Part shown: positions 18,001 to 21,000 of the stretch, piece after piece
How the letters are laid out: the number at the start of each line of letters is the position of its first letter
Position numbering within the stretch: the first letter of the stretch is position 1
Assembly: GCF_003334405.1 (NCBI RefSeq)
Contig: NZ_QOWM01000019.1
Strand: one strand, 5' to 3'
Origin: Escherichia coli
Lineage (GTDB): Bacteria > Pseudomonadota > Gammaproteobacteria > Enterobacterales > Enterobacteriaceae
DNA: 60,909 nucleotides
Made by a program: the position numbers

Positions 18001-21000
18001 GTTTTGCCATATATTATTGGAATAGCTGTAATTCAGCGAAGTCGTAATATCACCAAACGGCACATTTAATCCAAATGATATTTGCTGGTCGCTGCGTGAC
18101 GTGTTCCAGTAACTTTGGCGACTGGCACTGAAAAATGTCGTACCGTAATTTCCAAGCTGCTGAGAGATGCTTATTTGTTCCTGACCACGCTTACTGTAGA
18201 ACAGATTAAAATAATCAATAACTTGTGTCTGCTCATTGGTGTCTCCGGTAGGAGGCTTGACGGTGTAACCACTCATTCGACTGTAGGCACTGTCGGATAA
18301 GTTATAAAAACCTTGCGTAGAATAGCGATATCCTGCGACCTGGATATTGGTTCCACAACAAGTTTATTGCTGCACTTGTTGAAGAGAGTATTTGCAAAAA
18401 CATTTTATGTCGCTAAATAACATGACGATTTCATTATGCATGTTATTTATAAACCGTGACTAAACAGAATATTATTGCGAACAAGGGAAGTGTCAGGAAA
18501 GGTCAAGAGCTACCAATGGTTAATATGGCTATAAATCATTAGCTATGGTTAATGTTTGCTTGCTGAAACTAACACCGAATTGCTCTAAACAGATAAGTGC
18601 AGGGTTTATTAAAGCTGTCCGACAGACTTTCTTAACCTGGTAATATCTCTCTTGGGTGACTCTCCAAACATCCGCGAATATTCCCGACTGAAATGGGATA
18701 GCTTTCGTAACCGACAGCATAGGCTGCTGTGGTGACATCGTAATGTTCATTCAGCATCTGTCGCCTGACTTCATTGAGACGTAGCCATTTCTGATACCGG
18801 AGTGGACTCATTCCCGCTTGATCCGTCCTTAAATAAGTAACAGCACCCTCTGGTGTTTTCGTATGCAGTGTCTATGCGACAGACACTGCGCTCTTAGCAT
18901 GGGGCAGGGAATAACCAGGCTATTTCTCCATGCACAGGCCAATTATGAAAGAGGAGAGGCTTAAGTTCTTGAACCCTGAACGAATAACGACTACCAGAAA
19001 AGCACTTCGCATCACTCAGACATGATTTAACATAATATACATTATGCGCACCAATATAAACCAAGGAAGAATCCAGTCGTTGGCGGTCATGATTGTCATG
19101 CTCATTAACAATGACCAAACCCCATATCTCACTTACTACCGTATTCTCGGCTTAACCGTCCATGCAACCTCAACACATTGCTTTCAACTGCCGTCACCAC
19201 GTTCTCCGGAAAATCTGTCGGTAATGAAGTCTTCACGTTATCCAGTGCTGCTGGAATCATTCTGGCAAAGTCACTCAGGATTTCATGCATCTGCACTTCC
19301 GGGAATCTCAGCACCTTTGCTGTCGCCAAAAAATGTCGCGGATAAATTTTATCGATTGCCGTTTTTTTGCCTTTGGATGCGTTAAGCCCCATTGCCAGTT
19401 TGAGATCGCTGATGTGTATTCCCGTACCGCCAAGGACCGGAAATGCTGAAATGATGTCGTAAAATGGCGTGAGTCGATAACTGCCGCCAGCCTGAATAAA
19501 TACGGAGAAGTTTTTTGCATGACCGTCCGTTGCGCCAATCAACCACTGGAAGACCTGGAATTTCATAAAATCATAGCGATCTTTCAGCGCCTCGCTGGAC
19601 CCCATCAAAAAAGCCATGATCCGCGCGATGCCTGGGCCTCCATCTGATTCATATTTCACCGATGAAGGTAAACCGAATGTCTGACACATATCCTCCTGTG
19701 GCAAGCGAAGTAAAACCGTTCGCTCAGCATTCCAACGCCTGTCAAAACGTTCGACCGCTAACGCGCGCACATTTCCCGCTTTAATGATTTCTGCGTCCGG
19801 AACATTCAACCCAAGTTCTTTCGCCAGCAGCAGACAGTAATACTCATTATCAACGCTTTGGCTGAGATCGAGCGTCGCATTGGGCTGCCTGATTTCGCCA
19901 ATCGGTAATTTAATGATGTGCGTCGTCGGCGTTATTCCTTTCGGAATGCACCAGTCATTGCCTATTCTGAGCAGTGCTGTCTTCTCCTGTGCGCCAGCAA
20001 CCGAGATGCGAAAGTCATTTTCTTCTCTAATCATGCCTAGCGGGATATCTGCTTTATAAGCCGTTAATACTTCTTCAAGTCTGGCTTCAGTAAGCTTTTC
20101 CCATGCCATTATCGGATGCGTTACGGTTTCGTCTTCGGGTATTAACGTCACGGCACCAACGCTGTCTCGCCCTATTTCTGACAATAAATCAAACGGTTGT
20201 CTGGATTTGGCATGATAACGTTTAACGATCCGGTCACGTACAATCGGGCTATCGGGTAACAGGTTATCGAAGAAGTTAAATACGGCATCAGAGGTGATAT
20301 TCCCCCTCTGCAATGGCAGCGAAAGTGACAACGGTCTGGCATAACGGCTTGCTAACCACTCCGGTGCATACTTAAAGGTGTGCGCGCCGTTGGCTAACTT
20401 CGTTAACTCGCCTACCCGCTGGTTGTTCATCCAAGTGACAAGTTTAGGCATTACCACTCCAGATTTTGCTGTTCTGTTGATTCTGGCGAGGCATTTTTCG
20501 CGTCGCATAGCGTCATTGAGAGTTCAAGCGACTGTAAAATCTTAAAAAATGTCGTGAGCGTGGTATTGTCAGGGTTGTTTTCGAAATTGGAAATCGTCGC
20601 CTGCTTAATACCAATTTTTTTCGCCAGCTCGCTCTGCGTCCAGCCATTTTGCTGGCGAACCAGTTTCATTGCATTCGCCAATTGCGTTGGGCTATAGATC
20701 TTCTGAAAGCTCATCATGTCATACGTCCACAGCAAGTTTATCCGCTTAAGGGGATATTATAAGTTTTATCCTTTAGTGAGGATAAGTCAATCTGGAAACA
20801 CATCTTATCCGCTCTACGGGATAAACGCTGCGATATCCGCGATCGCGGATAAAAAGGAGGATTTAAATAAGGCGTTGATGCGCCGTTTGAAGTCGGCAAT
20901 ATTAAGCCGCATGCCATCTCGACATGCGGCTTATACGGTTTACCAGCTATATTTCACTTCCAGCATGCCCTGAGTATCGCTATAGCCTTTATCACCTAGT

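What the first reader, a model, noticed from the sequence alone, without database searches (positions are those of the whole stretch)
18364..19128. Scar region between fimbrial remnant and hipA: frameshifted AraC fragment plus a perfect 9-bp inverted repeat
An AraC-family C-terminal HTH (MSPLRYQKWLRLNEVRRQMLNEHYDVTTAAYAVGYES) is present without its N-terminal domain and with a frameshift near 18690. At 18865-18889 there is a perfect inverted repeat GCAGTGTCT-N7-AGACACTGC right at the fragment's upstream edge. Together with the truncated usher this suggests several rearrangement events at the junction where hipBA sits.
Basis: seen in the sequence. Interest (0 to 1): 0.35.

Follow-up and report, generated by a model that had tools for sequence, protein, structure and literature searches.

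The report
Decayed gene remnants beside E. coli dif

Summary
Both observations are real. The AraC-type fragment (18609-18817, minus strand) is the annotated K-12 pseudogene yneL (b1506). It holds the last 69 of 304 codons of an AraC_N + HTH_18 regulator, with a 1-bp deletion at 18699/18700. The perfect 9-bp inverted repeat is at 18865-18889.

The exact 28-bp dif site (XerCD chromosome-dimer resolution) lies at 19025-19052, and KOPS motifs switch strand there.

Klebsiella pneumoniae keeps an intact cluster beside its own dif: AraC regulator, alpha/beta hydrolase, hairpin, DUF2255 gene. Against it, K-12 retains only four pieces in the same order and orientation:
- the regulator's 3' end;
- the hydrolase stop codon with its downstream hairpin, which is the flagged repeat;
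- the first ~27 codons of the DUF2255 gene;
- dif.

Other E. coli lineages keep different shards, so they decayed independently. The truncated usher (ydeT) results from a separate 3,278-bp deletion, found in 1,380 of 5,426 genomes.

The repeat is therefore a fossil 3'-end hairpin. It is not a recombinase site, not a repeated element and not a canonical terminator. The reading "several rearrangements" holds, but nothing links the repeat or hipBA to them. This is ordinary, already-known biology and of low interest.

The parts
17128..18354 (-). ydeT: C-terminal remnant of a fimbrial usher gene. Its right end, 18354, is the junction of a 3,278-bp deletion.
   Evidence: RefSeq calls it 'missing N-terminus'. 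In strain hubt-sl the two sides of 18354 lie 3,278 bp apart (L002 722 and 4001), with the usher N-terminus, chaperone and fimA-like gene between them. The K-12 junction is present in 1,380 of 5,426 genomes.
18355..18596 (-). Leftover distal part of the upstream (promoter) region of the deleted fimA-like gene. It is AT-rich and holds an 11-nt perfect inverted repeat at 18414-18449.
   Evidence: It is collinear with L002 4001-4243, upstream of fimA, in strains with the intact operon. The repeat is I2. Promoter-like hits lie on the minus strand.
18609..18817 (-). yneL (b1506) pseudogene: the last 69 of 304 codons of an AraC_N + HTH_18 regulator, with a 1-bp deletion between 18699 and 18700.
   Evidence: Annotation. 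tblastn to homologues is split over two frames. The 1-bp gap shows in the alignment. The intact Klebsiella orthologue is 304 aa, with AraC_N at 31-182 and HTH_18 at 217-291. The fragment matches HTH_18.
18829..18904 (+). Last few codons and stop codon (TAA, 18834-18836) of a lost alpha/beta-hydrolase gene, plus its downstream intergenic sequence.
   Evidence: blastn to Klebsiella L012 5001-5082 (79%) and to the E. coli argW-island copy L014 12439-12516 (78%).
18865..18889 (+). The flagged inverted repeat, GCAGTGTCT-ATGCGAC-AGACACTGC: a fossil stem-loop from the 3' end of the hydrolase gene.
   Evidence: I7. The stem is conserved and the loop is variable in four genomic contexts, with no compensatory changes. 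It folds at -21 kcal/mol on the plus strand (z -2.6) and -17.7 on the minus strand (z -3.4). No T-tract follows, so it is not called a terminator.
18902..18909 (+). KOPS motif GGGCAGGG, the one nearest dif on this side, pointing toward dif.
   Evidence: all 5 plus-strand KOPS lie left of dif and all 3 minus-strand KOPS lie right of it.
18943..19024 (+). 5' stub of a DUF2255-family gene: Shine-Dalgarno GAGGAGAGG and about 27 codons. The position that aligns with the annotated Klebsiella start codon reads AAG in K-12.
   Evidence: blastn to L012 5188-5232, the start of the annotated DUF2255 gene. Alignment. The ETEC4077-type allele keeps the ATG.
19025..19052 (-). dif, the 28-bp XerC/XerD chromosome-dimer resolution site, GGTGCGCATAA-TGTATA-TTATGTTAAAT. 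The XerD arm faces yneL and the XerC arm faces hipA.
   Evidence: Exact match with none in 100 shuffles. Conserved in all E. coli loci examined that keep this junction. KOPS polarity switches here. dif is placed between yneL and hipA in bioRxiv 10.1101/2025.09.02.673814.
19129..20451 (-). hipA (440 codons), on the other side of dif; its stop codon is 77 bp from dif.
   Evidence: Annotation; ORF list.

Best explanation
The interval between ydeT and hipA is non-functional debris from two separate gene losses, lying against the chromosome's dif site.

On the left, a 3.3-kb deletion removed the front of a chaperone-usher fimbrial operon. It left ydeT and part of the operon's promoter region.

On the right, an ancestral dif-proximal cluster was whittled down by internal deletions. 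The cluster was a divergent AraC_N/HTH_18 regulator, an alpha/beta hydrolase, a stem-loop, a DUF2255 gene and further genes. Four collinear shards remain: the regulator's last 69 codons (yneL, also frameshifted), the hydrolase stop codon with its 3' stem-loop, the first ~27 codons of the DUF2255 gene, and dif.

The flagged inverted repeat is that stem-loop. In the intact cluster it most likely forms at the 3' end of the hydrolase mRNA, as a weak terminator or a 3'-end protective hairpin. In K-12 it has no gene to serve and is a fossil.

The only element here with a current function is dif. XerC and XerD bind its two 11-bp arms, and FtsK, steered by the converging KOPS motifs, activates XerD to resolve chromosome dimers at division.

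Shown: the homologies, the breakpoints, the dif sequence and the KOPS polarity. Inferred: that the cluster was ancestral at this position, the original role of the hairpin, and its present lack of function.
For: Identity of the region:
- It is 100% identical to K-12-type genomes and is annotated ydeT / HTH pseudogene / hipA.
- dif is exact at 19025-19052. KOPS are 5/5 on the plus strand left of it and 3/3 on the minus strand right of it. A TerC-like site and three matS sites in the window confirm the terminus region.

Origin of the shards:
- K. pneumoniae CP125156.1 has the intact order AraC (304 aa), hydrolase, hairpin, DUF2255, then dif, with dif in the same orientation.
- K-12 matches four collinear pieces of it: L012 2535-2756, 5001-5082, 5188-5232 and 8524-8550.
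- Other E. coli keep different pieces. O157/ETEC-type strains keep 57 bp more of the AraC gene plus hydrolase-internal L012 4586-4645, and lack the hairpin (399 genomes). B2-type strains such as CFT073 and Nissle keep hydrolase L012 4643-4743 and no AraC stub (327 genomes). K-12-type is in 3,047 genomes.

The hairpin:
- It sits about 30 bp after the hydrolase stop codon in the intact copies. Its stem is kept while the loop differs in length and sequence in four contexts.

The fimbrial deletion.
Against: - No E. coli genome was found with the intact cluster at the terminus. The 86 intact E. coli copies sit in the argW/intS island. The cluster is therefore mobile, and the Klebsiella and E. coli dif-side copies could be independent acquisitions.
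- Only one Klebsiella chromosome was examined.
- The hairpin lacks a U-tract and shows no compensatory substitutions, so its role as an RNA element is inferred from position and stem conservation alone.
- Absence of function in K-12 is not tested. The K-12 stem pairs slightly better on the minus strand (11 pairs), which is the strand hipBA transcription would read through.
Confidence: 0.78

Rival explanations
1. The inverted repeat is a recombinase target or the footprint of a mobile-element insertion that caused the AraC truncation.
For: It lies 48 bp from the end of AraC homology. In the argW island, homology to the Klebsiella cluster ends about 10 bp past it. On Klebsiella IncFIB plasmids an IS903 end abuts it directly. 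So it often sits at the edges of homology blocks.
Against: - The sequence between the AraC breakpoint (18817) and the repeat is itself homologous to the hydrolase 3' end, so the repeat is part of what was retained and is not the junction.
- It is single-copy per genome and has no phage match, so it is not an IS or MITE end.
- The real recombinase site, dif, is 136 bp away. No formal comparison of the repeat with the dif half-sites was run.
- A gene-end hairpin is expected to sit at the edge of a gene cassette.
Confidence: 0.05
2. The inverted repeat is a chance palindrome with no history or function.
For: Nine-bp perfect hairpins are common: 15 hits in this window.
Against: The same stem recurs with different loops and flanks that are only about 79% identical, in K. 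pneumoniae chromosome and plasmids and in the E. coli argW island, in the two intact gene copies (Klebsiella chromosome, argW island) just after the hydrolase stop codon.
Confidence: 0.05
3. The hairpin has been co-opted in K-12-type strains. It could stop or pause read-through from hipBA across dif, or, together with the adjacent KOPS, belong to the dif activity zone.
For: - On the minus strand (the hipBA direction) the K-12 allele forms an 11-pair stem with a 3-nt loop, z -3.4.
- The segment is at least 99% identical in 3,027 genomes.
- A KOPS motif that the Klebsiella and argW homologues lack lies 13 bp away.
Against: - No T-tract follows on either strand, and there is no Rfam match.
- The near-identity is what recent common descent predicts.
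- About 2,400 E. coli genomes lack the segment and keep dif.
- A 525-bp deletion that includes yneL (endpoints not checked against the repeat) had no effect in a dif-dependent growth assay, whereas removing the 114-bp dif-containing interval did (bioRxiv 10.1101/2025.09.02.673814).
Confidence: 0.08
4. yneL still encodes a small functional helix-turn-helix protein (the 59-aa ORF 18632..18811).
For: An ATG-initiated ORF exists and the fragment is widely conserved in E. coli.
Against: - It retains only residues from about 236 of a 304-aa protein. The AraC_N domain and the first HTH are lost, and the frameshift disrupts the second HTH.
- Different lineages carry different truncations, or none of the gene at all.
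- It is annotated as a pseudogene, and the literature reports no function.
Confidence: 0.03

Closest known systems
yneL (b1506) and ydeT (b1505) of E. coli K-12, annotated pseudogene/partial genes
   Same: Same locus and same sequence. The AraC-type fragment and the truncated usher are exactly these annotated features.
   Different: Nothing differs. The added detail here is the source cluster and the breakpoints.
dif / XerCD / FtsK-KOPS chromosome dimer resolution system of E. coli
   Same: The 28-bp sequence is identical to the canonical site. It lies in the terminus region at the KOPS convergence point, between yneL and hipA as published.
   Different: Nothing differs.
AraC_N (PF06719) + HTH_18 regulators, the AraC family subgroup with this N-terminal domain
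   Same: The fragment is 91% identical in protein to the C-terminus of an intact 304-aa Klebsiella member and 88-90% identical in DNA to the E. coli argW-island member.
   Different: Only the last 69 codons remain and they are frameshifted. No effector domain and no first HTH remain.
Intrinsic (Rho-independent) terminators and 3'-end protective stem-loops
   Same: A GC-containing 9-11 bp stem lies just downstream of a stop codon, with a conserved stem and a free loop.
   Different: No U-tract follows the stem, so the consensus terminator scan finds nothing.
IMEX elements (integrative mobile elements exploiting Xer, e.g. CTX-phi-type filamentous phages)
   Same: Sister strains carry a tandem filamentous prophage exactly at this dif. 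This shows why the locus is rearrangement-prone.
   Different: The window itself carries no such element. The flagged repeat is unrelated to IMEX attachment sites.

Membership tests
AraC/XylS-family transcription regulator (functional member) | Complete ~100-aa DNA-binding domain with two helix-turn-helix motifs | tested here: not met
   Homology starts at residue ~236 of 304. The first HTH (204-244 in the intact orthologue) is mostly absent and the second is split by a frameshift.
AraC/XylS-family transcription regulator (functional member) | N-terminal effector/dimerisation domain (here AraC_N, PF06719) | tested here: not met
   tblastn finds no trace of it upstream of 18817. That DNA instead matches the hydrolase 3' end.
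AraC/XylS-family transcription regulator (by descent) | Significant sequence homology to family members | tested here: met
   HTH_18 E 1e-23 for the unshifted allele. 91% identity to the intact Klebsiella protein.
dif (XerCD recombination site) | 28 bp: 11-bp XerC arm, 6-bp central region, 11-bp XerD arm matching the E. coli site | tested here: met
   Exact match at 19025-19052, with 0 of 100 shuffles matching.
dif (XerCD recombination site) | Located where KOPS polarity converges, in the terminus region | tested here: met
   KOPS are 5 plus-strand left and 3 minus-strand right of the site. A TerC-like site and three matS sites are nearby. GC skew in this short window is noisy and does not pinpoint the site.
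dif (XerCD recombination site) | XerCD/FtsK-dependent recombination activity | not testable with these tools
   Rests on the literature for this locus.
Intrinsic terminator (for the inverted repeat) | Stable GC-containing stem-loop | tested here: met
   -21 kcal/mol, z -2.6 on the plus strand.
Intrinsic terminator (for the inverted repeat) | U-rich tract immediately after the stem | tested here: not met
   The scan finds no terminator-like site in 18200-19300. The tail is GCTCTTAGC.
Repeated palindromic element (REP/BIME/MITE/IS end) | Multiple dispersed copies per genome | tested here: not met
   Median 1 place per genome. The second copy, where present, is the intact argW-island module. No phage hit.
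matS (MatP binding site) | GTGACRNYGTCAC palindrome | tested here: not met
   The only matches within 1 mismatch are at 28746, 48240 and 58598; none is at the repeat.
Known structured RNA (Rfam) | Match to a covariance model | tested here: not met
   No match with E up to 1 in 18000-21000.

The most novel reading that the evidence does not exclude
The strip next to E. coli dif may be a turnover zone for gene modules that move with host Xer recombination or a hairpin-dependent mechanism, without a recombinase of their own.

Two observations leave this open. First, the conserved hairpin sits at the edge of the AraC-hydrolase module in four unrelated contexts: the Klebsiella terminus, Klebsiella IncFIB plasmids, the E. 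coli argW island and the K-12 terminus. Second, 488 E. coli genomes carry the junction of a 7.7-kb oxidoreductase island seen in ETEC4077 that has no integrase. In ETEC4077 it is bounded by the true dif and by what looks like a degenerate second dif: ATTTAAC, a 14-bp insert, then GGGA-TATACA-TAATTG.

On this reading the flagged repeat would be a module boundary or recombination structure rather than a dead terminator.
Probability: 0.07. Interest if true: 0.5.

Novelty: already known. Interest (0 to 1): 0.15.

Why it matters
It matters little for discovery. yneL, ydeT and dif are all annotated or published for E. coli K-12, and pseudogene debris in the terminus region is expected.

The check still gives three useful results:
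- It corrects the reading. The landmark of this interval is dif, not hipBA or the palindrome.
- It explains the palindrome as a leftover gene-end hairpin.
- It shows that E. coli lineages carry different shards of one ancestral dif-side cluster. These shards are handy lineage markers and illustrate how fast DNA beside dif turns over: prophages, defence islands and metabolic islands sit there in sister strains.

Tried and rejected
- Rfam scan of 18000-21000 at E up to 1 found nothing.
- The consensus terminator scan found none.
- I tested the repeat as matS and found no match.
- I tested the 116-bp segment containing the repeat (18815-18930) against phage records and found none.
- In plasmid records, the only hits were Klebsiella homologues and mislabelled chromosomes. 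These turned out to be the key lead.
- The scan of genome contigs with GCAGTGTCTN{3,22}AGAYACTGC was too unspecific. Species-wide distribution and outgroup synteny were therefore not obtained.
- The protein homologue search with the 91-aa fragment listed no hit longer than 160 aa among its best 120. It gave no full-length relative but did point to AraC_N.
- I looked for an E. coli genome with the intact cluster at the terminus. The candidates annotated 'AraC family transcriptional regulator' that I fetched were the argW-island copy; one further candidate, NCTC10444 (H137), was not fetched.
- GC skew in the 61-kb window is too noisy to mark dif.
- The alpha/beta-hydrolase tblastn against plasmids found few close relatives, so no wider covariation test of the hairpin was possible.

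Full report
**Where the window comes from.** The stretch 18300-19200 is 100% identical to K-12-type E. coli chromosomes. It is collinear with MG1655 positions 1586000-1594000, with 5 substitutions in 8 kb. RefSeq annotates the following, all on the minus strand:
- ydeQ, ydeR and ydeS;
- ydeT, marked 'missing N-terminus';
- a 'frameshifted; incomplete' helix-turn-helix pseudogene, which is yneL (b1506) in MG1655;
- hipA, hipB and the yneO autotransporter pseudogene.

The finding's two gene-level observations are therefore already in the standard annotation.

**Checking the observations.**
- The AraC-type peptide is encoded on the minus strand. Homology to family members runs from 18817 to the stop at 18609-18611 in two frames.
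- Alignment with unshifted alleles shows a single missing base between 18699 and 18700.
- The perfect inverted repeat GCAGTGTCT-N7-AGACACTGC is at 18865-18889.
- Such a hairpin is expected 0.03 times in the 765-bp region. The window has 15 hits of the same class against 2.4 expected by a first-order Markov model, so it is one of many.
- It folds well on both strands. It has no T-tract, the terminator scan finds nothing, and Rfam finds nothing.

The canonical 28-bp dif site, GGTGCGCATAATGTATATTATGTTAAAT, is present exactly at 19025-19052 on the minus strand, 77 bp from the hipA stop codon.
- KOPS motifs (GGGNAGGG) are all on the plus strand to its left: 6253, 7377, 11133, 15687, 18902.
- They are all on the minus strand to its right: 22033, 22813, 33995.
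- This is the polarity expected at the site where FtsK is steered to XerCD (review PMC5357621).
- A TerC-like site at 37435 and three matS sites confirm the terminus region.
- A 2025 preprint places dif in the 114-bp yneL-hipA interval, states that no function is reported for yneL, and shows that deleting 525 bp including yneL is neutral in its dif-dependent assay.

**The usher truncation.** In strains such as hubt-sl the operon is complete: fimA-like subunit, chaperone, usher, ydeS, ydeR, ydeQ. The sequences on either side of window position 18354 lie 3,278 bp apart there. K-12 therefore carries a clean deletion that removed the major subunit gene, the chaperone, the usher N-terminus and 177 bp upstream of fimA. 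A 60-bp probe across the junction is fully matched in 1,380 of 5,426 complete genomes.

**Origin of the AraC fragment and the repeat.** The 116-bp segment containing the repeat (18815-18930) is single-copy and present in 3,047 genomes at 99% identity or more. It has no phage match. It does hit Klebsiella.

In K. pneumoniae CP125156.1, a chromosome filed among the plasmids, the region about 3.5 kb from that genome's own dif (2 mismatches, same orientation) reads as follows:
- an intact 304-aa AraC_N + HTH_18 regulator on the minus strand;
- an alpha/beta hydrolase on the plus strand;
- a stem-loop about 30 bp after the hydrolase stop codon;
- a DUF2255 gene on the plus strand;
- a GlxA-like regulator and gap;
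- dif.

K-12 matches four collinear pieces of this:
- L012 2535-2756, the regulator's 3' end, at window 18597-18817;
- L012 5001-5082, the hydrolase stop plus stem-loop, at window 18829-18904;
- L012 5188-5232, the ribosome-binding site and first codons of DUF2255, at window 18943-18988;
- dif.

The flagged repeat is therefore the hydrolase gene's downstream stem-loop. The same stem occurs after the intact hydrolase gene in an argW/intS island found in 86 E. coli genomes. It also occurs on Klebsiella IncFIB plasmids, next to an IS903 end. Across the four versions the 9-11 bp stem is kept, with one G-C to G-U change. The loop varies from 7 to 10 nt with different sequence. There are no compensatory double changes.

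**Independent decay in other lineages.**
- O157/ETEC-type genomes (399) retain 57 bp more of the regulator, unshifted, fused to a 60-bp internal piece of the hydrolase (L012 4586-4645). This is followed by the DUF2255 stub. They lack the stem-loop.
- B2-type genomes such as CFT073 and Nissle (327) retain the neighbouring hydrolase piece (L012 4643-4743) and no regulator stub.

Each type keeps sequence that the others lack, so none derives from another. They are separate deletion products of a fuller ancestor. I did not find that ancestor at the terminus in any E. coli genome, and my one genome-contig scan was wasted on an unspecific pattern. In-situ ancestry therefore remains an inference from shared order and orientation relative to dif.

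**Why this locus is unstable.** Sister strains show dif being used or crowded by mobile DNA:
- NCTC9104 carries a tandem filamentous prophage (Zot, secretin, pII) on the XerC-arm side of an intact dif.
- 1218KP carries an integrase-bearing defence island (CBASS-HORMA, a UvrD-nuclease pair, NACHT) abutting dif and lacks any match to yneL or ydeT.
- ETEC4077 carries a 7.7-kb oxidoreductase island, whose left junction is present in 488 genomes, between the DUF2255 stub and dif, bounded on the stub side by a dif-like relic.
- hipBA itself is truncated or absent in some lineages.

**Verdict.** It is wrong about the repeat and blind to dif. The repeat is best explained as a fossil 3'-end hairpin with no current role. 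Everything of functional weight here is already known, so interest is low.

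Noticed in passing
window 18414-18424 / 18439-18449: A perfect 11-nt inverted repeat (TAAATAACATG / CATGTTATTTA, 14 nt apart) sits in the AT-rich leftover of the deleted fimA-like gene's upstream region. It is longer than the flagged repeat and could be a regulator site of the fimbrial operon.
   Followed up: no
window 18902-18909: The KOPS motif GGGCAGGG lies 13 bp after the flagged repeat and 116 bp from dif, oriented toward dif. The Klebsiella and argW-island homologues of this stretch lack it.
   Followed up: partly
window 28746, 48240, 58598 and 37435-37450: Three exact matS sites (GTGACAACGTCAC) and a Ter consensus site (AGGATGTTGTAACTAA, TerC position) mark the Ter macrodomain.
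   Followed up: no
L004 / L135 (E. coli NCTC9104, NZ_LR134152.1 2336000-2350500): Two tandem copies of a filamentous prophage (pII, major coat, attachment protein, Zot, secretin) are integrated exactly at dif. A perfect dif is kept on the yneL side.
   Followed up: partly
L006 / L136 (E. coli 1218KP, NZ_CM173878.1 2397000-2440000): A large island abuts dif on the yneL side. It carries paired site-specific integrases, CBASS with HORMA, a UvrD-helicase/ATP-dependent nuclease pair, a NACHT protein and several IS110-family elements. No match to yneL or ydeT was found in this genome, and dif has one mismatch at the outer XerC-arm base.
   Followed up: partly
L003 4680-4730 and L011 40654-48440 (E. 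coli ETEC4077): A 7.7-kb island lies between dif and the DUF2255 stub. It encodes LysR, a DJ-1-like amidotransferase, aldo/keto reductases, an NAD(P)H oxidoreductase, a quinol monooxygenase and a carboxymuconolactone decarboxylase, and has no integrase. It is bounded by the true dif and by ATTTAAC + 14 bp + GGGATATACATAATTG, which has an exact dif central hexamer. The junction is present in 488 of 5,426 genomes. It may be a degenerate second dif.
   Followed up: partly
L014 9001-12520 (E. coli 19-5) and L137: An intact AraC_N regulator, a truncated iron-containing alcohol dehydrogenase and an alpha/beta hydrolase with the same hairpin sit as cargo in the argW/intS island of 86 E. coli genomes. 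Those strains therefore carry both a live copy and the terminus fossil.
   Followed up: partly
L008 and L010 (E. coli 23CRST013 and strain 108): hipBA is not universal next to dif. hipA is N-terminally truncated with no hipB gene annotated in strain 108 (its alleles match O157:H7). Only about 60 bp of the hipA 3' end remain in 23CRST013.
   Followed up: no
window 15440, 15682, 15797, 18222, 20959: The window differs from MG1655 at five single bases in the 8 kb compared. It is a K-12-like genome but not MG1655 itself.
   Followed up: no
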